A stretch of 63,829 bases of DNA, counting the filler, from Collodictyon triciliatum (Eukaryota), in assembly GCA_043381765.1 (NCBI GenBank). It is 5 parts of 5 records of this genome, joined end to end, with 100 filler letters (N's around TTAATTAATTAA, not from the genome) between each part and the next. Parts side by side here need not be neighbours in the genome. Positions count along the whole stretch, not along the records: positions 15,071 to 30,073 come from JBHJMP010001749.1; 4 more parts are not named here. One strand, written 5' to 3'. Shown here piece after piece: positions 515 to 45,224 of the stretch. The position numbers were made by a program, and so were the translations under genes. A model generated the notes under the pieces. The model worked only from the letters and a program-made list of their open reading frames with translations, had not been told where the DNA came from and searched no databases. The stretch's first letter is position 1; each line of letters opens with the position of its first letter.

Positions 515-6748
<6,234 letters not shown>

Positions 6749-12834: not shown

Positions 12835-13854
12835 TGATGATGGGCCTTTTTCCATGAAAAGTATTGTCATTTTCTTTAAAATATAAAATGACATATATCA
12901 AACCAAAACCTTCATATCTCCTCCCGCTCAACTATCTTGAGCAGATTCTCTCCTTTCTATTTATAACTGAAATTATATCGCTCTGTTTGCACTCCTATTT
13001 CAGATTCATTTAAAAGGAATCAGAATATAATATTTGTTGAAAGTATAAAGATCCCAAATTTCTCACCTTAAGCAATGATTGCAAACAACAATTAGACCAT
13101 CAAGACAAATTAAGACAAACCAAAACCGATTCTTGACAACTTTTGATTATCTCGATATGCAACATTTTTAATGGAATAAAGGAATAAAACTTAAGATGAA
13201 GTATTGTACTACTCTTTAGTAGTTTTATGTTTCATAGATATAGAACATGCAGTATCCGCCATGGGTTTATTTGAGCAGGTCGTTTCTGCATAAAATGTTA
13301 CAACAGAAATAATCATTTATATTTTTATTTACGTAAAGTAATCAAAAACTTATTTTACATCTTTTTATGTTCTTATCAAAATCATATTATTTTATACCAC
13401 TTAACTCGAAACCTAGTAATAGGGTTTTCACCTAGCCCATAAAATTCTGTCAATCCAGGTAGCTATACATATTTTGGGGTAGATTGAACTTCAAATAAAA
13501 AAGAAATGCAGTTAAAAACATTATATTTAAAATCTATAAGTATTATATTAAATAATTCCCCTGAACTTAAGCTTTCATCAAAAGAGAGAGAGGAGACCTA
13601 TGTGCAATTATAATTACATTCCATAAAAAAATACTTTGGATTTTGAAAACTAATTGAATAAAAATGAAGTTTAATTCAATATTTTTAAAGTCATCTTTCA
13701 ATTACATAATCAATACAAACGTGGATATCCATTTAAATTATGGACATTTTTAATCACCGCTGCGAATTTTTGTCACACGAACCTTTTTTCTCTTATAAAA
13801 TTCTACAGCTTTCCTCCTCTTTAATATCAAAAAGGGCAACAAGTCTCATGCCTG

Positions 13855-14970
13855 ATGGAAAACACGAGCCGCGACCCGTCGGAGGCTTTGCAAGTTGCAG
13901 TTAGTTCTTCTGGTTCGATCAGTGGTGCAAAAACTCCGAGTTGCATGCAAGCCCAGGAAGAGCCGTGTAAGGAGGCTGCCTGCAAGTCTGCATGAGCGGA
14001 CTGTATTTTTGCACGGGGTCGAGCAAGTTGTTTACATTAAGAATAAGGCCCGCAGGCTCACAGATGCGCTTTCCTCCTTCTTGAAAACGTGCAAACTTTG
14101 GGAAGAGTCCATCCAATTGCGCTTATCGGACAGCGAAGGCCTTTGCCTGATTGTCTTCCGCACTGCAGAAAACGCCCGAAAGCTTCTGGAGCTGAAGCAG
14201 GCAAGTTTGATCGATATTATAATCAGCTTCGCCAGAAGTAAACCAACAGAGACCTCGGTGATGATGCTCTACCAACTACCGCTGGAAGTATGGCCGCAAC
14301 CTCTCGTGAGGAGCTGAAACCGTTCAGACCGACCCATGTTGAAATCAAAAAGGACAAAGGCTTCTTCACAGACACGGCCGTGGTGAGGCTTCTTTGTCAC
14401 AAGAACCAACTCCCTGCAAAGTTTACGGTCAAGGGTAAGAAGTGTCCAAAGCGCATCCTCAAAGAGCGTCCGCCAGCCGAGAACAACGAACAACAAGTAA
14501 AAGCCCCGCAAAAGAATACACATGCCAAGCAGACAAGCAGCAACGGGTTCAAGGAAGCCAAGGCCAGGTAACAACTGAGTCCACAAGACTCACAGCAGAT
14601 ACGCACATACAATGACAGCGACGATGACATGGAAGGAAATCTCGGTTCCTCTTCAGAATCCTCGCACTCGAGTCATCCATCATCGCCAACACCAGACAAG
14701 CTCGCACATCGCAAGACCCAAGAGCAGCTCATCCCCAAACCCCGAAAGAAATCCCCCCTTTAAACTACCCATTCAGACTGACGTGAATATGGTTAACATA
14801 GGAGGCATCAAGGCAGTCTTCGTTACTTATCCGAAAGGATACTCCAAATCGAAGGCAACACAAGAACCAGCGCCCACCAAAGATAGTCCGTTTACCCTGC
14901 CCCAGCCCGTCGCACCGAGAACCAAGGAGCAAGAGCAAACACCACAAGTCGAATCCAAGCTTGGAACTTC
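13855..14970 (+). mobile_element. Non-LTR retrotransposon (L1/Tx1-like) ORF1 fragment, frameshifted and truncated by the contig end
   Basis: Intronless block, GC-richer than its flanks. RRM-like segments (TVFLHGV, CLIVFRTAENARKLL; MLYQLPLEVW..KGFFTDTAVVRL..LPAKFTVKG) are followed by a Pro/Ser/Lys-rich linker, as in LINE ORF1p. The reading frame is split across several frames. Confidence 0.55.
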
Positions 14971-15070
14971 NNNNNNNNNNNNNNNNNNNNNNNNNNNNNN
15001 NNNNNNNNNNNNNNTTAATTAATTAANNNNNNNNNNNNNNNNNNNNNNNNNNNNNNNNNNNNNNNNNNNN
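14971..15070. other. Artificial 100-nt contig spacer N44-TTAATTAATTAA-N44
   Basis: The core has stops in all six frames. Identical copies are at 30074-30173, 45125-45224 and 60170-60269. Confidence 0.95.
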
Positions 15071-16775
15071 TATCTTTTTTTCTTCTCTTTTTTTCTTATC
15101 TTTTTTTCTTATCTTTTTTTCTTATCTTTTTTCTTATCTTTTTTTCTTATCTTTTTTCTTATCTTTTTTTCTTATCTTTTTTTCTTATCTTTTTTTCTAT
15201 TCGGTCTCATTCAGCCTGTAAATGGATAAACTTCATTACAAAGGTTGTGACGAACTCGGTTTAATCCCTTTCTAGGCATGACACTTTTTATACATCAAGA
15301 GTGTACTCATATATACCATTTTATTGCACAGATAACCATTAAATTAAATCTGGATTGACAAAAGCAGGAGCTTTGATGAATCCAAGAAGCAACCTGAATA
15401 ATATAATAGTATAATTAGTATATGTAATAAGGTCATAAATACATAATAATATCATTTTATTCCTGTAATCAATTTATGTTTTATTTTGCATTTAGTAATA
15501 TTATCATCAAAAATCCAAAGATTGCAAACAAGCCCTTGCCTTGGCCAGACAGAACCTACCCTATAAACTTGCCACCAAACATGCATTTCAAAAAAGCATA
15601 CTATCCACACTTGCGGCGGTAATCATGTTGTTTGGGGCCGATGTGTTGACTTTCAGTCGCAATGGCTATACAGCCGTCCTTTCGAACTCTCTGAATGGGC
15701 TATCAGCGTTTTGTCTCAAATCACTTATATAAAACTTTGTGCGTTTGATTACCACAATGCGCACATTTTGAGAGACTCGGTAGATGCTTAATTTTACATA
15801 AATTGATTTTGTGCAGTTTTTTTTTAAAAAAAAAAAAATTGACCGGTTGACTAAAGTTTTATTAAAATTGAAATCATCTCTATAGTCGATTGTTAAGAAT
15901 CCGGATGACTATGATAAAATCGACGATACGGTTTTATTGTGTCATAATTTGGTTACCGACACTTATCTGTTTGCAAGATGTTACATATTAAAATCACAAC
16001 AACTCCCCGTAATCAATGAAAAGTTTTTTTTTTTTTGTACGCTTTAAAGACAGTCGGAATAGTTTCACAAGATAGACCCGCAAGATGAAAGCATCTATAT
16101 ATGAGAGAAGACATGATGACTTCTTATCTCAATGATTTTCGATTTCTTTTGTCCAGAGAAGAATGCTTTCCGTTCGTTAGACTGTCTCATTTATTACCGT
16201 ACTTGGCGAAGGTAATGCTAACAGCTTATCATAATAACATTAAGGAGCATTTTGTAAAGAGGTTACTGCGCTTTATAAGTCAAACAGTTCCTTAAGATGA
16301 GAATATTACGGAAGCTATTAAAAAGGCAGAATTACGATAGTTAAAAAAAAAAAAGCAATCCTCATGAAACTCGAAATACTGGAATAATATAAAGAGTGGG
16401 CTGCAATGCATTTGCATCATATCATTCGCAGCGATATTGTAAATAGTATCGAATATGATGTCAAAGTCAATCCAAATAAGTACATAACATGTCTGATTTA
16501 CATGAATCGCATTTTTGAGGACATTGGAACTAAACTGTTTCAACCAATCTATAGAAGAACTAACAATATACCATGTCATATTACTCTAGATACGGCATGT
16601 TTGATAGATCTATTACTATCAACTGGAAAAACATTATTAATGAAGAATATATCAGGATGCAAAGAGAACCTATGGAATAATGTCTTTGAAATAAAGAGGG
16701 TCTTTCATCAGAGATTACAATTTCAAATACATGATACAAACAGACGGCTTGGCGGTGTCATTATTGTTTGAAAAG

Positions 16776-17242
16776 TGGCCCACAATACCAAATGACCCAC
16801 GACTCTAGAATACTCTGGACAGTCACAAGGGGACATATGCTGTGGGCCTTATGGAGTGTGCGTGCATTCTCTCGCTCCGATGATTCACCCGAACGAGAAA
16901 TCAATGTTTACAGGCTTGAAAGCCTCGTGCAATACAGCTTCCTGAACAGTCTGCTGAAACACGCTCGCATTCTTCGCTACTCTGACCGCAAGCGAAGAGA
17001 GATGTGGGAATGTGTCGTAAGGTATCTCCCACAGCATATCCAACCCCTGCTACCCACGCAACCAATCAACCAGTTGGGACGCCCACCTGACCAGCTCGCT
17101 ATCACTGATTTCTTTCCAGTGCTACCCTCTCCACGGTAGTGTCTTCTCCTACTCGCGTTTGCTCTCTCCCATGCGCTCCCATCCCGCCACTTTGTATGGC
17201 ATAACCTCGCTACACTTTGAATCGAATAAAGGAAAAAAAAAA
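16776..17242 (+). mobile_element. 5'-truncated non-LTR retrotransposon insertion with poly(A) tail and 15-bp target-site duplication
   Basis: TTATTGTTTGAAAAG occurs at 16761-16775 and again at 17243-17257. AATAAA at 17225-17230 precedes A10 at 17233-17242. An open frame ends at 17139 (HMLWALWSVR...). The Fanzor frame resumes when the insert is removed. Confidence 0.9.
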
Positions 17243-18190
17243 TTATTGTTTGAAAAGAATGGTTTTTCAAATTCAAAATTCAATTTAATCAAAAACCCAA
17301 GAAAATGTTTATATAGATGAACTTTGCGAAGAGCAGTTATCTTTATAGGCGAAAAAAAAAAAACAATTGGAGTGGGCGCAGACAAGTTTAATTTGGTTTA
17401 AATGGTGGATGAGACGGTAAGAAATTACGTTACACGGCACACCAAACAAGAGATGATAGAAAATCTCTTAAAAATCACAAAATACTCTTGTGCGCGAGAA
17501 AAAAGAAAAGTACAATTACTCAGGGATATGCATGACAACAGATTTACAAAGTGATGTTTCTTTTGGTCACATGACTGTTGAAGAAAATCAGCAGTTTGAG
17601 AGATTAAGAGCATCCTTAATCGATTTAGAGACAGAACTGAGTAGACATATTTCAAGCGCGGTCGATTATGAAAAAAATCGAAAATATGTATCTATGAAAC
17701 CATGATACCAGTAGAATTTTCCAGATTTTATGAACACGTAACTTTTCGAAAGATGAGGTGGAGACAGTGTGTTAATACAAAAAGAAATGTACAATTGTTT
17801 ATGAATCGAATCGAAAAGACATTTGGCAAGGATGTTGTCCTGGCGCATGGAGACTGGAGCAGAAAATGTCCAATGTACCATTTTATTGCAACAATCAGAA
17901 GAGGATTACGAAAAATACTATCCAAACGTTTTGAAACAGTTAGCGTAGATGAACTTAGAACCTTCAAGATATGTCGCAACCGCGAAAAAGAACTGGAATG
18001 TATAACACTGATAGGAAATACAAAAAATTGTATAGATGTCTCATATTTAAAGAATACAATCACTCAGAAAGCAAACAAAGTGTATTCTTGACAAGGGACA
18101 TTAACAGCGATAAAAAAATATATACCCATGAAAGTTATTTTAATCCTCAAAATATGCATACACCTTGCTTTAAAAAAAAAACAGGCTGTT

Positions 18191-18300
18191 GGGTCTTTCC
18201 TGGCACTCTTCACCACTACACGGCCTCTGTGAAAAAAGTGGTGAGACCCTCGATACTAGTGCGCCAGGTTTACCAATCGAAAGATTTTACACCTTTTCTA
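18191..18300 (+). ncRNA. Putative Fanzor omega-RNA scaffold overlapping the 3' end of the ORF
   Basis: Nested complementary segments: TCACCACT 18210-17/AGTGGTGA 18237-44; CCTGGC 18199-204/GCCAGG 18263-68; TCTTTC 18194-99/GAAAGA 18279-84. A crossing pair TCGAT 18250-54/ATCGA 18276-80 is also present. The position matches known TnpB/Fanzor omega-RNAs. Confidence 0.55.
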
Positions 18301-18917
18301 GTGGGAAATATATGAAATTTAGATTTAAGGATATATGTATAATGAGTGTCTCATGTCGAATGACCTGTTATTCTGGAAGGGACAATCTGATCATCGAGTT
18401 GATTTCATCTTTTGCGTGAGGGTGAAAGAGAACGAGCAGACTGGCAGAAAAATTAAGGTAAAGATTATCTTAGAACTGGCCGGCATATTGATTCATTAAA
18501 TTGCAAACTGGCACCATATTTCTGCACGTTTATTTATATCAAATAAAATTCGGGCGTAATTTATCTCCTAGTTATCCTACGGTAGAAATGAACCGTCTTG
18601 TTAGACTTTTCTTTTCTTTTTCCGTTTTGGGTCAAACCCTAGCAATATACATTACTTTGGAAATCCCGTGACTTCTGCCAGGATTTTTTTTTAAACACAA
18701 AGAGACAGTAGACAAAAAGCTGTATTATTATCATAGTTATTGTTATTATTATCATTACGCCCAATTTACATGTACACTCGTACGGTATGCTTGACAAGCT
18801 ATCAATCGTTCTGGTGTGGGTAGCTTTATCGTAGTTCCGTCGCGCATTTCTCAGAAGATAGAGGATGCTATGAGATAAAGCATTCGGAGAAAGACTCACT
18901 CATAGAAAAACAAAAGG

Positions 18918-21900
18918 TTATTCGTCGCCGTCTGGTTCGTCGGTATCCTACATTCAAGGTGGTATTAAAAAAAATAATCAACATCAATAATTTTTTTTAA
19001 AAAATGTTAACTACTATGATAAGCAACTATATAAGCATTACATAGAAAGATAGACGGGTCGTTACAAAGAGGGTTTGCATTAAAGCCCACGCATTCATAA
19101 ATATGAAATATACCTTGCCAAAGTATTCGTCTCTTTCATCTCCGCCACTTTGAGCTTCATCTTTCACACCAGATTCTTCAATTTGAGATTGGTGGGTGCT
19201 GTCGGAGCTTACGGTAGTGACTAGCCCATCCTGAACTGTCTCTGTAGAATAATTGGCATTGGGCACAGTGGCAGAGACATTCTCGTCCCCTTCATGCTGA
19301 CTCTTTCCTCCTGTGTCAGTCTCCATCGCCATCGATTTTGTTTGGCCAGAGTTTGCACTTGTTGAGTGGGGTGAACTTGGGATGTACCATTCCATCTGGA
19401 GTGGTCCAAACTTGCCGTTGGAGCCAAACTTCATCGCCTATGGTAAAAAAACAACAAAAACATATTTAACTTGTCAAATGTATTATTTTTTATATTGGGT
19501 TTTGTTTTTGGTCAGTTTTTTTTTATTCCCTCCTTTTCAATAGATTGGGCGGGTCGTTCAGATTTGCACAATTATTTGTTTTGTGATAGATTTTAAAAAG
19601 AACCTTTTCTGCAAACGGCCTTGCTTGATACTCGATTATTGCAATGTGCCCTTTGTTTACTCGCGAGGTCATGATTCCAAATTTCTACATAATTGAATGG
19701 CATTATGATATACCAACGCTTGTCTTTGTGTTTTTGCATGTCATATAACAAAATATTTGACATTTGAAAGGATATTTAAGTCTCTAAAAGTGTAAAGATA
19801 TTTCTCAAGGGTTACGACACATACCTTGAAATAGTTGAAGAATACAGTGGGGTCCCGGAATTCCTTCGGTGGGTTTCTAATGATGATGGATTTGGGCCTA
19901 TTGTCCAGATTCATGACCTGTCTGCCAAGCATTACTGTTGGAGCCGGTGGGAGTGTCGCTGTCGGTAAGGTAACGCCCTTCATTACTGACGATGTTTTCA
20001 CAGTGTTGGGGGATACTGACGGGTCAGCTTTAGTCAGTGTTGCATCCTTCTTGTCTTCCTTTTCAGACATCTCGGCTGGACCCGCAGCTGCGGCTGAGGG
20101 TGCATTGACTACGGACGGGGTGCTCAGTCTTAATTTTCGGGACAGAATCATGCTGCTAACCTTGGCTTGCGCTTCGATTTCAGCCTTTCTTTTAAGGAGT
20201 TGTTCCACGGTTTCTTTGATTCTCTTGGTGATAACGGTACGATTTTCTATTGAAATGGTTTCTTTCCCCGAGATCGATTTAATGGATGCCTCGTGTTTCT
20301 GGACCTTCTCTTCGATTTCTTTCAGCTCTTCAGTTTGTTTTGCGGTGTATACGATTGTAATGGATTCCTAGAATTCACAAAGTTACTTGCAGTGGAATAA
20401 TTTTAATGTGAAAGCACCTCAAGTTACTATTTGTTGTACATAAAGGATTTTCTATATCATATTGCGAAACATTTACCTCATTTGAATGTGTTTTGGGCTG
20501 CTTTTTCTCATCCTGTGTTATTTGGCAGTTAGTCTATCTGTGCATATATTTATCTATTTTCGATTTAAGGCACTAAAAACGAAGCTTATAAAGGGAGAAA
20601 ATAAAAAGTTTAGAGAAGCTGTTCTATGTCGCTGAATATATAATACCTCATACTAATTCTTTAATATGATAAAAATATGTACAAACCCATCGTCTTTCAC
20701 TATTTTCTTTTTTATTATCCTTGTATGCCCATGTAACATAAATTTTTCGATTCTCAAAGATCGGCTCTGTTGATTGTAGACAAGACAAGGCATTGTCGTG
20801 GCTTTTGTACTGAATAAATGCCTTTTGCTTCGGAGCACATGTCTATATTTCAATTTTTACAACGAAAATATGCATTAGATAAAGTAGAAAAGTAGAAAAT
20901 ACTAATGAAACTGAAGGGGAGTGGGGGGTAGAAAAAAAACTATTAAAATCAATGAACCTGGACTGTCACGATGGGACCAAACTTTGAGAAGTGCTCAGAA
21001 AGGGTCGTGATTTGATTAAGATCATCAGGTATGTTATGTACGCAAAGTTTGGTTTGTGAAAACTCTGGTTTTTGTCTTTGTGTCGGGGTTTGCTGCTCTT
21101 TCTTGTTTGTTCCTTCTATAGAATCTTGATTTGGATTGATTCCTTCCGGATGAAGGGATTCGATATCCTGCGGGAGGTTATCATGTTCATGCTGATGCAG
21201 CTCGCCTTCGTTACTTACATCGCCTGAAGTTATCGGCTGTGATGGATTTCCATGAGCAGGATTTTGCAGATTTTGACGACGTTGTGATTTGGTAGATGGA
21301 TTTCCTTGTAAAAAAAAAGTGTAGAAGTTAGTGTATGTCATCTTCATAATCAGCCAAATATTAATAAGTAGGGGAATGCCATATTCTTGGAATAAAACAA
21401 GCAGATTGTATGAATTCATTTCCTTTGTGTTTCCTTCTGATTATTGATTAGCAATAATAATAAAATACCAAGAAAGCTGTTGGATCTAGAGTTGCGCATG
21501 CGTGAAAGTGCTTGGAAAGGCATTCCAGAAAGAGAACTTCCCTCAGGGTACCCCATTTGATTGTTTGGCACGATAAATTGGCCAGGCAATCCCAGAAGTG
21601 GAGCTGAGCGACGCTCAGACGGTAAGTTAGGATTTTCAGGGTCATACGCTGCTTTCCATTAAAGAATATTCTGGTCAAAATCTCTCTTTTTTCTTCTTTT
21701 TTTTAAAAAAAATAAAATAAAATAAAATATTATGTACTTTTTCATGATAAAGACAAATACCGTCATGTGGATTTGCAGGGGTCATAAATGAGCGATTGAT
21801 GCGCGGGTCGTAGTGCATTTGATCAGCAGGGGACATTTGGATGGGCATTTGCATAGAGAGGGGTACAGGCATGTGCATCGGCATTTGCATTTGCATTTGC

Positions 21901-23719
21901 ATATGAAGGTATCTTTGCCTGTCAACAGACACTGGCAACCCATCCATTCCCACCGTGTATTTAGGTGGGACCCCTATAATCGGTTGATAAAATCCCTTTG
22001 CTTGGCCACCCATTATAGGCGGCTGTTGCAACAAACTTGGACCCGTCATTGGTGCAGGCTGGGCAACATGTGGGCCAGATGACACGGAAGAATGCTGTAG
22101 GGGAAGCAGTCCGGTACGTGATTCTGGTATGGCATCTTGTGGGCCTCGGGTTTGAGGGCGCTCGTCTCCACGGTTTTTGGAGCGTTGACGGTCACGATCT
22201 CTATCTCTATCATTTTCCCGAGTCCTGTCGCGGTCTCTATTTCTATCCCTGTCGCGGTCTCTATCCCTGTCCCTGTCGCGATTCCTGTCCCTGTCGCGGT
22301 CTCTGTCACGGTTTCTCTCCCTGTCATGGTCTCGGTCTCTATCTCTATCTCGGTTTCTCTCCCTGTCACGGTCTCTATCACGCTCTCGGTCTCTGTTTCG
22401 TCGGCTGTCCTTGTCTCGTGTTGATTCTCTTCGAATATGACCATGTCGGCTGTCATTATGGGATGGTGTGCTGCCCAATGGAATAGTAGCTGATGATGGG
22501 GGAATACCAGAGTCTACGACAACATCAGATTGCATAATGGACACGTGTATATCGTCCTCATCATCGTCTTCCTCTTCCTCTTCATCGTCACTAGTGGAAC
22601 CAAGGTCGTGGTAAGAGTGGTTGCCTTCATTTCCGTCTTCATCTCCATGAACAAGTCCTTCCTCATCTCCATCGTTAGTTGCACTTATGTCGGTTGTTCC
22701 TTCATGTGCTGGTTGCCCTTGATTGTCCGATATCTCATTTGCGTCACTTACATCTTCATTATCGATGGGACTTTCATTTGCATCCCCTTCAATCCGAACA
22801 CGCTTTCGATCGAATTCCCTGTCTTCATCGTCTTCGTCTTCAAGATCAAAAGATGTATGAAGTGTGCCTTGATGACCATCAGATTCATCGTTTGCAGACG
22901 CTTCAGCGGCGAGCATATCACCTGAAATGGATGAACGGAACTGCGGAAGCTCTTTGATTAAGCGATCTGCAAAGGTGTCTGTATCTAGTTTCCATTTAGT
23001 TTTTTTTTTTAGTCTACATGCTTTTCGGAAAATAAATACAATCATGAAAAACGATATTGATGTATGCTTAATAAGATCTATATGTATATAACAACAAAAC
23101 AAAAACAAAACAAAAAAAAAGGAAAGAGAAAGAAATTTCCATTATGTAGTCATACACTTTTTTTTTCAGCAATAAATATATTTCACAATTAAGTTGATCT
23201 GAATGTTAGTTTTCATTCTTTTAATGTGGCATCGGAATTCATTCGAAGGGGTGATATACTCGGATATTCGGGTGAATATTACTTGTCTTCAGGAAGGACT
23301 GGATATTTTCCTGAACGTTCTTTTTAATCTGAGGGAAGCTGTCTTCGCACTCGAGAATCGCCAGGATACAGTCCACGAGGGCCGAACGAACGTCTTCGTT
23401 GGTTACGCCACTTTTGTGAAAGAATAAAAAGGCAAGGGAAAGAGATATTAGTCGTTGAAGGATACTCCTTTTTTTAAAAAAAAAAATAGACTTTTTTTTC
23501 GTCTATGAAAGGATATATAATAGAAAGGGGAAAAGAAAAAATACCTGCGAGTAGTATAATCAATAGTCGAAAACGAAAAAAAATAATTAGTGGACGAAAT
23601 ACGTCAGAAAAAAAAAAGTAATAGTATAAGGGGTTTCCTGTCGGATGTACTTACTATTGCACAAGGAGACTGTTGAGCCACTTTTGCATGGAAACGGTAT
23701 CCTGCTTGCTGAACTTCAT
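18918..23719 (-). CDS. RBM26/RBM27-like RNA-binding protein (PWI-like N-terminus, RD-repeat region, two RRMs)
   Basis: N-terminal MQKWLNSLL..ALVDCILAIL..TFADRL, then an RD/RE tract and YDPENP. RRM1 is KLCVHNIPDDLNQITTLSEHFSKFG..KAFIQY..FENRKIYVTW. RRM2 is LDNRPKSIII..LQMEWY. Stop at 18918-18920. Confidence 0.8.
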
Positions 23720-27200: not shown

Positions 27201-28444
27201 CTATTCAAACAATTCGTATGGATAATAAGAAAATAATATTGCGAACAAATGCCTCCAATAGTCATTACAACTCGAAAGGTTAGTGTTATAATTCCTTTTG
27301 CTATGGTAGGGTAAAATAAATCATATGGACTTCAAGCGTGGCAAAGAGTGGTATGCTTTCTGTCGAAAGTGCACTTGAAACAAAGAGGGATAAACAAATA
27401 GGATGAATACGACAAAGCGGTTGCCTATGCTAAGTACATNNNNNNNNNNNNNNNNNNNNNNNNNNNNNNNNNNNNNNNNNNNNNNNNNNNNNNNNNNNNN
27501 NNNNNNNNNNNNNNNNNNNNNNNNNNNNNNNNNNNNNNNNNNNNNNNNNNNNNNNNNNNNNNNNNNNNNNNNNNNNNNNNNNNNNNNNNNNNNNNNNNNN
27601 NNNNNNNNNNNNNNNNNNNNNNNNNNNNNNNNNNNNNNNNNNNNNNNNNNNNNNNNNNNNNNNNNNNNNNNNNNNNNNNNNNNNNNNNNNNNNNNNNNNN
27701 NNNNNNNNNNNNNNNNNNNNNNNNNNNNNNNNNNNNNNNNNNNNNNNNNNNNNNNNNNNNNNNNNNNNNNNNNNNNNNNNNNNNNNNNNNNNNNNNNNNN
27801 NNNNNNNNNNNNNNNNNNNNNNNNNNNNNNNNNNNNNNNNNNNNNNNNNNNNNNNNNNNNNNNNNNNNNNNNNNNNNNNNNNNNNNNNNNNNNNNNNNNN
27901 NNNNNNNNNNNNNNNNNNNNNNNNNNNNNNNNNNNNNNNNNNNNNNNNNNNNNNNNNNNNNNNNNNNNNNNNNNATTGCCTAACAAGCACGATCACTTGC
28001 GGACAGACTTAGGCCATCCTTTGGGATATTACTTAGGTCGGCGGCCAGAGAAGAGAAATGTGTCTGTCGGCTTATGGCTTTGGCGGAAAAAATATAAATG
28101 GAGACATAATAATTTTGTCCTTATACAGAATTTGAACCTAAAATAAGCAATTTTATTGAATGATGCTTTTGGATATTATCTATTGCTGGAATATATTTCC
28201 TCGAGCCATAGTTTTGTGGTAGTTATATTGGGTTCATGCACCAAACTACGCTACAACATCGAGGAATTCCATCTTATGTCTATAATGAGGCTTTCTTCCC
28301 ACAGTTCCCGCCCTGGTTGAATCGTATGGGAAGCTGTTAGAAAAGCGAGAGGAATGAGCAGCCGCACGAATGACATCCTTTCTTTCCCCTTTTTTCCTTT
28401 TCCTTTTCCTATTTCTTTTCTTTTTTCTTTCCTTTTCTTTCCTT

Positions 28445-30073: not shown

Positions 30074-30173
30074 NNNNNNNNNNNNNNNNNNNNNNNNNNN
30101 NNNNNNNNNNNNNNNNNTTAATTAATTAANNNNNNNNNNNNNNNNNNNNNNNNNNNNNNNNNNNNNNNNNNNN
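30074..30173. other. Artificial 100-nt contig spacer
   Basis: Same N44-TTAATTAATTAA-N44 structure. Confidence 0.95.
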
Positions 30174-45124: not shown

Positions 45125-45224
45125 NNNNNNNNNNNNNNNNNNNNNNNNNNNNNNNNNNNNNNNNNNNNTTAATTAATTAANNNNNNNNNNNNNNNNNNNN
45201 NNNNNNNNNNNNNNNNNNNNNNNN
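45125..45224. other. Artificial 100-nt contig spacer
   Basis: Same N44-TTAATTAATTAA-N44 structure. Confidence 0.95.

What the first reader, a model, noticed from the sequence alone, without database searches (positions are those of the whole stretch)
15845..18315. Fanzor1-like RNA-guided nuclease element in a protist genome
Seen: an intronless 2.5-kb broken ORF in an otherwise intron-dense genome. It has all three RuvC acidic positions (VGAD, VDELRT, RDIN), FRKMRW/GDWS, a decayed Zn-finger region and a long N-terminus (NNIKEHF, IQTDG). No transposase is adjacent. Established: Fanzors are eukaryotic TnpB-derived, omega-RNA-guided DNA endonucleases carried by transposons and large DNA viruses. 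Inference: a dead copy of a non-autonomous family whose intact relatives or consensus could give a new programmable nuclease. This copy is inactive: it has stops, an apparent PG deletion after the RuvC-I Asp, and a LINE insertion.
Basis: partly seen in the sequence, partly recalled or inferred. Interest (0 to 1): 0.85.

Follow-up and report, generated by a model that had tools for sequence, protein, structure and literature searches.

The report
Dead Fanzor1 nuclease gene copy
This is a decayed, retroposon-interrupted copy of a Fanzor1 gene (a transposon-borne RNA-guided DNA cutter already known from eukaryotes and giant viruses), so it is a real but ordinary relic rather than a new kind of system.

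Summary
Window 15826-18257 (+) is colinear with about 98% of a 634-aa intact relative (P0003) at about 45% identity. Its best fragment matches solved Fanzor1 structures (PpFz1 E 2.4e-8). P0003 models as a Fanzor1 fold (TM 0.79-0.85 to SpuFz1).

The copy is dead. It has 6 in-frame stops, about 9 frameshifts, and a 466-bp poly(A) retroposon at 16776-17241 flanked by a perfect 16-bp target duplication.

One point is wrong: there is no "PG deletion". So only 2 of 3 catalytic acids sit in place here.

Contigs from public runs show many 85-99% similar copies. Some lack the insertion, and they carry an Asp codon at the RuvC-I position and sense codons at three of this copy's stops.

The closest intact relatives lie in giant-virus contigs, inside 3.3-kb TA-flanked Tc1/mariner elements. 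Bao & Jurka described that arrangement in 2013. No transposase or terminal repeat is present in the window.

Verdict: new member of a known kind, low-to-moderate interest. The host taxon was not established.

The parts
15826..18257 (+). Fanzor1 pseudogene. It is colinear with aa 2-627 of the 634-aa relative P0003 and is interrupted at 16776-17241.
   Evidence: Frameshift-aware alignments, tblastn, PDB sequence hits to Fanzor1.
16776..17241 (+). Secondary insertion of a 5'-truncated poly(A) retroposon, either a LINE 3' piece or a SINE. It is absent from other copies of the family.
   Evidence: Poly(A) end and flanking duplication. Joints 16775->17291 in X1 and X4, deeper coverage over the insert, and contigs running on at least 255 nt 5' of 16776 in X1, X2, X4 and X19. 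No Pfam, Rfam or longer-protein match.
16760..16775 (+). Target-site duplication, left copy (ATTATTGTTTGAAAAG).
   Evidence: Read directly from the sequence.
17242..17257 (+). Target-site duplication, right copy (identical 16 nt).
   Evidence: Read directly from the sequence.
17375..17377 (+). RuvC-I catalytic Asp position (SpuFz1 D383, P0003 D372). It is a Gly codon in this copy.
   Evidence: Gap-free alignment. This column is Asp in at least 90% of 54 relatives. Other copies read A at 17376 (X2 6 contigs, all depth), which makes an Asp codon.
17381..17383 (+). It aligns with the Gly of the DPGK motif, not with the catalytic Asp.
   Evidence: Other copies read G at 17382 (X2 7 contigs, all depth), which makes a Gly codon.
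17849..17860 (+). GDWS motif. Gly sits at the canonical RuvC-II Glu position, which is the rearranged Fanzor active site.
   Evidence: G496 is invariant and W498 at least 90% conserved in 54 relatives. Passages of PMC10530073 read.
17951..17953 (+). Alternative RuvC-II Glu, in VDELRT (SpuFz1 E541, P0003 E530). It is retained. The following [TS][TS] pair reads T-F.
   Evidence: E530 is invariant in 54 relatives.
18094..18099 (+). RuvC-III Arg-Asp, in TRDIN (SpuFz1 D606, P0003 R580-D581). It is retained.
17969..18054 (+). Decayed C4 zinc-finger region. CRNR and CLIF replace two CxxC pairs, and a frameshift falls between them.
   Evidence: Relatives match the PF07282 Cas12f1-like TNB domain.
14971..15070 (.). 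Scaffold join (44 N, then TTAATTAATTAA, then 44 N) 755 bp upstream of the pseudogene. Upstream contiguity is therefore not assured.

Best explanation
This is a pseudogene copy of a Fanzor1 element.

Shown in published work: Fanzor1 is the eukaryotic and giant-virus descendant of the bacterial TnpB nuclease. An active Fanzor1 binds an omega-RNA transcribed from the 3' end of its own element. It uses the RNA's guide to find a matching DNA site next to a short transposon-adjacent motif. It then cuts both strands with a single RuvC site.

Inferred for the family's biology, by analogy with TnpB (recalled, not read here): this helps the carrier transposon persist or home.

Shown here for this copy: it belongs to a dispersed, multi-copy, Fanzor-only family about 2.4 kb long in an unidentified eukaryote. 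It stopped being functional and has since collected:
- 6 stops and about 9 frameshifts
- loss of the RuvC-I Asp
- loss of half the zinc-finger cysteines
- a retroposon insertion

It therefore encodes no nuclease now. Its nearest intact relatives ride in TA-flanked Tc1/mariner-type transposons inside giant-virus genomes from freshwater metagenomes. This fits the published idea that viruses move Fanzors between eukaryotes. The direction of transfer was not determined here.
For: Homology and fold:
- PDB sequence hits are to Fanzor1 only. For P0003: SpuFz1 E 9.2e-37 over aa 14-607, PpFz1 7.2e-34, GtFz1 7e-16.
- The AlphaFold model of P0003, built with 54 relatives, has pLDDT 88.1 and pTM 0.86.
- Foldseek gives TM 0.79-0.85 to SpuFz1, 0.72-0.73 (query-normalised) to PpFz1 and 0.67 to GtFz1. 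The next tier (Cas12o, ApmFz2, TnpB) has E about 1e-5 and TM 0.22-0.24.

Colinearity and lesions.

Family signature:
- G496 and E530 are invariant, and D372, R580 and D581 are at least 90% conserved, in 54 relatives.
- The window keeps G, E and RD but has Gly at the D372 column.

Multi-copy family:
- 216, 571, 28 and 13 contigs were laid from 4 of 4 runs at 85-99% likeness.
- Joints skip the insert.
- At 16087, 16293 and 17401 the other copies carry sense codons where this copy has stops.
- At 16709 and 17415 most of them differ in length where this copy is frameshifted.
- Metagenome ORFs P0006 and P0007 follow the window's shifted frames, so they come from decayed copies too.

Viral relatives:
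- L003, L006 and L009 are dense, intronless contigs of 254, 173 and 67 kb. They carry mRNA-capping enzyme, ribonucleotide reductase, MutS and helicases.
- The same contigs are in IMG/VR, and one record name carries a GVMAG tag.
- The element is 3.3 kb with a DDE_3 transposase, a conserved TIR of about 26 nt, and TA flanks.
- A Fanzor-only 2.03-kb version sits in L008.

Tree: the window is sister (SH-aLRT 86) to the clade holding those viral copies, inside a 22-row clade supported at 98.
Against: - No terminal inverted repeat, transposase or significant omega-RNA relic was found in the window. The mobile-element context of this copy is therefore inferred from other copies and relatives.
- The host genome is not held, so copy number, element ends and the existence of intact copies rest on short Logan contigs from four runs.
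- Those contigs could come from related species rather than the window's own organism.
- Three frameshifts (about 16039, 16338, 17346) lie in homopolymer runs of 12-13 nt and could be assembly errors.
- The sister grouping with the viral clade is only moderately supported, and the window's branch is long (1.07).
Confidence: 0.92

Rival explanations
1. The copy is a remnant of an integrated giant-virus fragment rather than a member of a cellular transposon family.
For: - The closest intact full-length relatives are all on giant-virus-like or IMG/VR contigs.
- The tree nests the window inside a clade with them.
- Bao & Jurka report virus-integrated Fanzor elements in algal and Hydra contigs (passages of PMC3627910).
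Against: - Hundreds of 85-99% similar short contigs in four runs indicate a dispersed repeat family.
- No contig runs past either end of the 2.5-kb stretch.
- Flanking ORFs of at least 110 aa show no viral hallmark domains. Other genes in the window are cellular and split by introns (MAPK, USP7-like, ATG22).
- Identity to the viral proteins is only about 45%.
Confidence: 0.06
2. The gene is functional, and the apparent damage comes from assembly errors or unrecognised introns.
For: - Three frameshifts coincide with 12-13-nt homopolymers.
- Fanzor genes in eukaryotes can carry introns (passage of PMC10530073).
- The scaffold contains gaps.
Against: - Six stops lie inside well-aligned blocks, away from any gap in the alignment.
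- The insert has a 16-bp duplication and a poly(A) tail, and it has no GT..AG ends (the skipped piece reads TG..TC).
- Gly replaces the catalytic Asp, and two zinc-finger Cys are lost.
- Independent metagenome ORFs from the same family are frameshifted too.
Confidence: 0.02
3. It is a Fanzor2 / IS607-type TnpB or other Cas12-like relic rather than Fanzor1.
For: - The RuvC and zinc-ribbon core is shared across the superfamily.
- Relatives give weak to modest PF07282 matches; 2 of 7 reach the curated cut-off.
Against: - For P0003, no Fanzor2, TnpB or Cas12 chain appears in the PDB sequence search at E<=1, while three Fanzor1 proteins do.
- Fold match to ApmFz2 is TM 0.23 and to TnpB 0.22, against 0.79-0.85 for SpuFz1.
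- The long N-terminal REC/WED half (NNIKxHF, TDG) is conserved with Fanzor1-length proteins of 590-800 aa.
Confidence: 0.01

Closest known systems
Fanzor1 of Spizellomyces punctatus (SpuFz1; PDB 8gkh, 9ceu-9cez)
   Same: - The whole-length fold matches (TM 0.79-0.85 for the intact relative P0003).
- The active-site layout matches: Asp in DPxK, Gly at the canonical RuvC-II site with a downstream Glu, then RD.
- It has the C4 zinc finger.
- The carrier unit is Fanzor-only and about 2 kb. SpuFz1 sits in a roughly 2.1-kb locus with 30-nt inverted repeats (passage of PMC10432273).
   Different: - P0003 shares only about 22% identity with SpuFz1.
- The window copy is dead: Asp to Gly, half of the zinc-finger cysteines lost, stops, frameshifts and an insertion.
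- No inverted repeats or omega-RNA were found in the window.
Mariner/Tc1-borne Fanzor1 elements of giant viruses and protists (PGv-1, PUl-1, PUl-4; Bao & Jurka 2013)
   Same: - The closest intact relatives (L001-L006) are TA-flanked, TIR-bounded elements with a DDE_3 transposase plus Fanzor1, inside giant-virus contigs.
- L008 is a Fanzor-only version with the same TIRs. This mirrors the published autonomous and Fanzor-only pairs (passages of PMC3627910).
   Different: - The window copy shows neither the TIR (0 matches at up to 3 mismatches) nor a transposase.
- It lies in a cellular, intron-bearing genome and is about 45% identical to the viral proteins.
- I did not compare sequences with PGv-1 or PUl elements, which were not available here.
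TnpB of IS200/IS605 (ISDra2; PDB 8h1j) and Fanzor2 (ApmFz2; PDB 9b0l)
   Same: - They share the RuvC plus zinc-ribbon core and an omega-RNA-guided mechanism.
- The omega-RNA overlaps the 3' end of the gene. Relatives here show a strongly conserved, structured 3' block.
   Different: - They are much shorter proteins, with only a distant fold match (TM 0.22-0.23).
- Canonical TnpB keeps the RuvC-II Glu where this family has Gly (passage of PMC10530073).

Membership tests
Fanzor1 | Significant sequence similarity along the whole protein to established Fanzor1 proteins | tested here: met
   - The window fragment hits 9cf0 (E 2.4e-8) and 8gkh (E 2.7e-3).
- The window is colinear with aa 2-627 of P0003 at about 45% identity.
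- P0003 hits SpuFz1 at 9.2e-37 over aa 14-607.
Fanzor1 | Fanzor1 fold (WED/REC N-terminal half plus RuvC/NUC) | tested here: met
   Tested on the nearest intact relative, not on the broken copy. The model has pLDDT 88.1 and TM 0.79-0.85 to SpuFz1, against 0.22-0.24 to Cas12o, Fanzor2 and TnpB.
Fanzor1 | RuvC-I catalytic Asp (SpuFz1 D383) | tested here: not met
   - This copy has a Gly codon at 17375-17377 in a gap-free alignment.
- Other copies of the family in run contigs carry an Asp codon there.
Fanzor1 | Rearranged RuvC-II: Gly or Pro at the canonical Glu site and a conserved Glu downstream (G500/E536 of Bao & Jurka; SpuFz1 E541) | tested here: met
   HGDWS lies at 17846-17860, and the Glu lies 34 residues downstream at 17951-17953. 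G496 and E530 are invariant in 54 relatives. Passages read in PMC10530073 and PMC3627910.
Fanzor1 | RuvC-III 'RD' (SpuFz1 D606) | tested here: met
   TRDIN, with Arg-Asp at 18094-18099.
Fanzor1 | [TS]-[TS]-x-x-C4 zinc finger between the Glu and RD | tested here: not met
   The pair reads T-F instead of [TS][TS]. Two of four Cys are kept (CRNR, CLIF), and a frameshift falls between the halves.
Fanzor1 | Open reading frame able to encode the protein | tested here: not met
   - Stops at 15883, 16086, 16293, 16385, 17399 and 17703.
- Frameshifts near 16039, 16338, 16715, 17346, 17414, 17491, 17712, 18000-18020 and 18187.
- A 466-bp insertion.
Fanzor1 | Cognate omega-RNA at or overlapping the 3' end | tested here: inconclusive
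   - Relatives have a conserved, structured 3' block: 43 predicted pairs, 10 with compensatory change among 6 sequences.
- A covariance model built from it scores only 5.2 bits (E 0.43) at window 18225-18339.
- Rfam finds nothing.
Fanzor1 | Carried by a transposon (ends and/or transposase) | tested here: inconclusive
   - No TIR, transposase or convincing inverted repeat was found in the window.
- The dispersed multi-copy nature is seen in run contigs.
- Relatives sit in Tc1/mariner elements.
Fanzor1 | RNA-guided, TAM-dependent dsDNA cleavage | not testable with these tools
   This needs biochemistry. The activity cannot be expected from this copy.
Fanzor2 / IS607-type TnpB | Close similarity to TnpB; compact protein of about 400-500 aa | tested here: not met
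   No Fanzor2 or TnpB chain appears at E<=1 for P0003. TM is 0.23 to ApmFz2 and 0.22 to TnpB. Relatives are 585-798 aa.
Non-LTR (poly(A)) retroposon, for the 466-bp insert | 3' poly(A), target-site duplication, 5' truncation, many genomic copies | tested here: met
   - Poly(A) tail plus a 16-bp perfect duplication.
- Contigs run on 5' of 16776 and diverge after the poly(A).
- Depth over the insert exceeds that of its flanks in all 4 runs: about 2- to 5-fold in X1, X4 and X19, and up to about 10-fold in X2.
Non-LTR (poly(A)) retroposon, for the 466-bp insert | Reverse transcriptase / endonuclease ORF (LINE proper) | tested here: inconclusive
   The insert holds only the 3' 466 bp. It gives no Pfam match and no longer homologous protein.

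The most novel reading that the evidence does not exclude
The host family may still include intact, active Fanzor1 copies. These would use a DAGK rather than DPGK RuvC-I motif and an omega-RNA overlapping the ORF's 3' end.

The family's nesting among Tc1/mariner-borne Fanzor1 genes of freshwater giant viruses may record virus-host exchange. If so, the shared element could link uncultured giant-virus genomes to this eukaryote as host.
Probability: 0.2. Interest if true: 0.5.

Novelty: new member of a known kind. Interest (0 to 1): 0.3.

Why it matters
The finding adds one more eukaryotic genome, apparently from a freshwater organism, to the list of Fanzor1 carriers. It also shows how such elements decay: point lesions, loss of the catalytic Asp, and a retroposon hit.

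Its practical value is indirect:
- Intact relatives at about 45% identity already exist in public giant-virus contigs, complete with transposase, terminal repeats and a conserved 3' RNA-like block. These would be the natural candidates for nuclease testing.
- The virus-borne and cellular copies share ancestry. This supports the published view that viruses spread Fanzors.

Tried and rejected
- Whole-genome search for other copies: no genome is held for this window.
- Pfam on seven window fragments: no relevant family. The only matches were two chance-level ones, E 0.019 and 0.18.
- Word-indexed protein search with the 139-aa fragment, longer proteins only: 0 of 120 candidates scored E<=1e-3. 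The exhaustive HMMER search then found the family.
- Second copy in the window: none. blastn of both halves and of the insert gave only low-complexity matches of 20-36 nt.
- Transposase remnants: tblastn with two viral DDE_3 transposases and a neighbouring 126-aa ORF gave nothing below E 1.4.
- TIR of the viral family: 0 matches at up to 3 mismatches. The best ungapped match near the locus was 15 of 26.
- Inverted repeats around the locus: 75 pairs, all AT-rich, low-complexity or inside the ORF. None is credible as an element end.
- Omega-RNA model from relatives:
  - The window-wide best hit (13734-13871, minus strand, E 0.15) is unrelated to the locus.
  - With filters off, the best local hit scored 5.2 bits, E 0.43.
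- Closer viral relatives: IMG/VR scans with the window fragment and with P0002 found none. An alignment query was unsuitable for that tool.
- Host taxon:
  - The Atlas search with the 1153-aa ORF gave one hit at 0.79 with no taxa recorded.
  - Cluster look-ups of 10 relatives gave metagenome sources only.
  - Run organism names are coded.
- Reading the RuvC-I stretch as "Asp plus a two-residue deletion": rejected in favour of the gap-free alignment, which the other copies support.
Full report
**What is there**

On the + strand between about 15826 and 18257 lies a broken reading frame. Read across three frames, it is colinear with almost the whole of a 634-aa protein (P0003) found by an exhaustive HMMER search.

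- Window 15826-16769 matches aa 2-327, with 135/302 identical.
- Window 17310-18257 matches aa 351-627, with 123/269 identical.
- tblastn group E-values are 2.9e-38 and 3.0e-31.
- No intron-like gap is needed.
- The largest open piece (17672-18091, 139 aa) directly matches solved Fanzor1 chains: Parasitella PpFz1 9cf0 at E 2.4e-8 and Spizellomyces SpuFz1 8gkh at E 2.7e-3.
- A stops-as-X read-through of 17321-18091 (P0001) finds 671 proteins at E<=1e-3 and 84 at E<=1e-10 among 1.84 billion representatives.

The resemblance is not chance.

**Which family**

- P0003 matches only Fanzor1 chains in the PDB sequence search: SpuFz1 9.2e-37 over aa 14-607, PpFz1 7.2e-34, GtFz1 7e-16. No Fanzor2, TnpB or Cas12 chain appears at E<=1.
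- An AlphaFold2 model of P0003, built with 54 full-length relatives (alignment A1), has mean pLDDT 88.1 and pTM 0.86.
- Foldseek against the PDB gives SpuFz1 at E 8e-32 to 2e-30 and TM 0.79-0.85, PpFz1 at TM 0.72-0.73 (query-normalised) and GtFz1 at TM 0.67.
- The next tier has E about 1e-5 and TM 0.22-0.24: Cas12o, mimivirus Fanzor2 9b0l, TnpB 8h1j.
- Pfam sees only the Cas12f1-like TNB zinc ribbon (PF07282) in all 7 relatives scanned, and only 2 of them reach the curated cut-off. It sees nothing relevant in the window fragments.

**Active-site reading**

In A1, P373, G496 and E530 are invariant. D372, G374, W498, T533, S534, R580, D581 and N583 are at least 90% conserved. These columns map onto the SpuFz1 magnesium ligands D383, N385, E541 and D606 (passage of PMC10432273; alignment).

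They also match the published Fanzor signatures:
- D-X(125,275)-[TS][TS]-x-x-C4-X(5,50)-RD, with Fanzor1-specific G500 and E536 (passages of PMC3627910).
- The "rearranged" RuvC-II: the canonical Glu is replaced by Gly or Pro, and an alternative Glu lies downstream (passages of PMC10530073).

What the window keeps and loses:
- It keeps the Gly of HGDWS (17849-17851).
- It keeps the alternative Glu of VDELRT (17951-17953), 34 residues downstream of that Gly.
- It keeps the Arg-Asp of TRDIN (18094-18099).
- It does not keep the RuvC-I Asp.

The stretch KTIGVGADKFNLV*MVDE aligns without any gap to relatives such as KIIGCDPGKKNLVYMVDE. The Asp column is therefore a Gly codon (17375-17377). There is no two-residue deletion.

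Contigs from public runs agree. Every contig of run X2 that covers these places reads A at 17376 (6 contigs) and G at 17382 (7 contigs). The family at large therefore reads V-D-A-G-K.

The zinc finger is half gone (CRNR and CLIF where relatives have CxxC), and the [TS][TS] pair reads T-F.

**Damage**

- In-frame stops in confidently aligned parts: 15883, 16086, 16293, 16385, 17399, 17703.
- Frameshifts: near 16039, 16338, 16715, 17346, 17414, 17491, 17712, 18000-18020 and 18187.
- Three of the frameshifts sit in 12-13-nt homopolymers and could be assembly errors.

The largest lesion is a 466-bp insert at 16776-17241.
- It ends in poly(A).
- It is flanked by a perfect 16-nt duplication, ATTATTGTTTGAAAAG (16760-16775 and 17242-17257).
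- Two runs (X1, X4) hold contigs that pass from 16775 to about 17291 without the insert.
- Contigs in all four laid runs continue at least 209-255 nt 5' of 16776.
- Flanks after the poly(A) differ between contigs.
- Depth over the insert exceeds that of its flanks in all 4 runs: about 2- to 5-fold in X1, X4 and X19, and up to about 10-fold in X2.

This is a 5'-truncated copy of an abundant poly(A) retroposon. "LINE" is probable but not shown: the piece has no Pfam match, no longer protein homologue and no Rfam match.

**A multi-copy family**

No whole genome is held, and no second copy lies in the window. Laying Logan contigs of four runs on 15845-18315 placed 216, 571, 28 and 13 contigs at 85-99% likeness.
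- They cover all 30 bins in two of the runs.
- None runs over either end of the stretch.
- Depth falls in the first and last bins.

At three of this copy's stops (16087, 16293, 17401) the other copies carry sense codons. At two frameshifts (16709, 17415) most of them differ in length. Much of the damage is thus private to this copy.

Other copies are also decayed. The metagenome ORFs P0006 and P0007 follow the window's shifted frames, and P0002 has Asp where the invariant Gly should be.

Three of the four laid runs are labelled freshwater metagenome or metatranscriptome. The fourth carries a coded organism name.

**Closest intact relatives and their context**

A metagenome scan with P0003 returned 10 loci.
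- L003, L006 and L009 come from contigs of 254, 173 and 67 kb with densely packed, intronless ORFs. These include an mRNA-capping enzyme/methyltransferase, a ribonucleotide reductase small chain, a MutS domain V protein and DEAD helicases.
- L008 sits among ankyrin-repeat paralogues. L004 lies next to a Mre11/Rad50-like fusion.
- The same contigs are in IMG/VR, and one record name carries a GVMAG tag.

In L001, L003, L005 and L006 (and, cut by the contig end, L002 and L010) the Fanzor gene lies in a 3.3-kb unit.
- The unit carries a divergent 343-346-aa DDE_3 (Tc1/mariner-type) transposase, checked by Pfam in L003 and L006.
- It has a conserved terminal inverted repeat of about 26 nt.
- It has TA at both flanks.

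L008 carries a 2.03-kb Fanzor-only unit with the same repeats.

Bao & Jurka described exactly this arrangement in 2013: Mariner plus Fanzor1 in giant viruses, alongside Fanzor-only derivatives.

In a 66-row tree the window read-through (X at every break) is sister to the clade holding these viral copies, with SH-aLRT 86. It sits inside a 22-row clade supported at 98, on a long terminal branch. No rows were dropped. The provenance of most other rows is unknown.

**Omega-RNA**

In the relatives, the last roughly 150 nt of the ORF up to the right terminal repeat are far more conserved at the nucleotide level than a coding constraint alone requires. They fold into a consensus structure of 43 pairs, 10 of which show compensatory change among 6 sequences. 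That is what an omega-RNA overlapping the gene's 3' end would look like, but it is a prediction only.

A covariance model of this block recovers an unused relative (L002, 172 bits). In the window it gives nothing significant: 5.2 bits, E 0.43 at 18225-18339 with filters off.

**Surroundings and host**

- Tests for a transposase found none.
- A scaffold join (44 N, a TTAATTAATTAA linker, 44 N) lies 755 bp upstream, so what precedes the locus is uncertain.
- Elsewhere the window carries intron-split cellular genes (MAPK, USP7-like, ATG22) and a 1153-aa WD40 plus ephrin-receptor-like repeat protein.
- The MAPK exon scores best against PDB chains named MAPK 4 and MAPK 6. From memory these are plant entries. 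They rank above ERK5, ERK1 and ERK2 chains. This is a weak hint against an animal host.
- The taxon was not established.

**Verdict**

This is a real Fanzor1 pseudogene and a new member of a well-described kind. Its RuvC-I reading is wrong, and its interest score is too high.

Noticed in passing
L003:6802-6950 (and the same region of L001, L002, L004, L005, L006, L008): The 3' end of the giant-virus-borne Fanzor1 genes up to the right terminal repeat is nearly invariant at the nucleotide level. It folds into a conserved multi-stem structure (43 pairs, 10 with compensatory change). It is a candidate omega-RNA scaffold.
   Followed up: partly
L008:3609-5643: A 2.03-kb Fanzor-only element carries the same terminal inverted repeats as the 3.3-kb transposase-bearing elements. 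It is inserted among ankyrin-repeat paralogues on a dense, intronless contig.
   Followed up: partly
window 16776-17241: The inserted retroposon is abundant in the laid runs. A 521-nt contig of a freshwater metatranscriptome run (X19) covers 16776-17087 with 8 differences and continues 5', so the retroelement family is probably transcribed.
   Followed up: partly
window 54141-57602 (-): A 1153-aa uninterrupted ORF combines a WD40 beta-propeller, at least 9 ephrin-receptor-like cysteine-rich repeats and a hydrophobic C-terminal region that reads as multi-pass membrane (read by eye, no predictor run). This is an unusual architecture in an otherwise intron-split neighbourhood.
   Followed up: partly
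window 14971-15070, 30074-30173, 45125-45224, 60170-60269: Four scaffold joins share one pattern of two 44-N runs 12 bases apart. At the first join, the only one read, the 12 bases are the six-frame stop linker TTAATTAATTAA. Longer N runs lie at 27440-27974 and 61857-62719.
   Followed up: yes
window 15071-15198: A tandem array of 10 copies of a 13-nt unit (TATCTTTTTTTCT) lies directly after the scaffold join, upstream of the pseudogene.
   Followed up: yes
window 21675-23141 (-): A 488-aa open frame has a long acidic stretch and an Arg/Asp (RD/RE/RN) dipeptide-repeat region. It has no Pfam match and is probably an exon of a larger gene spanning about 19.7-25.5 kb.
   Followed up: no
window 2583-3252, 6162-6747, 59864-60217: Very long trinucleotide microsatellites translate as runs of I, Y or L of 50 residues or more. 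Simple repeats are frequent across the window.
   Followed up: no
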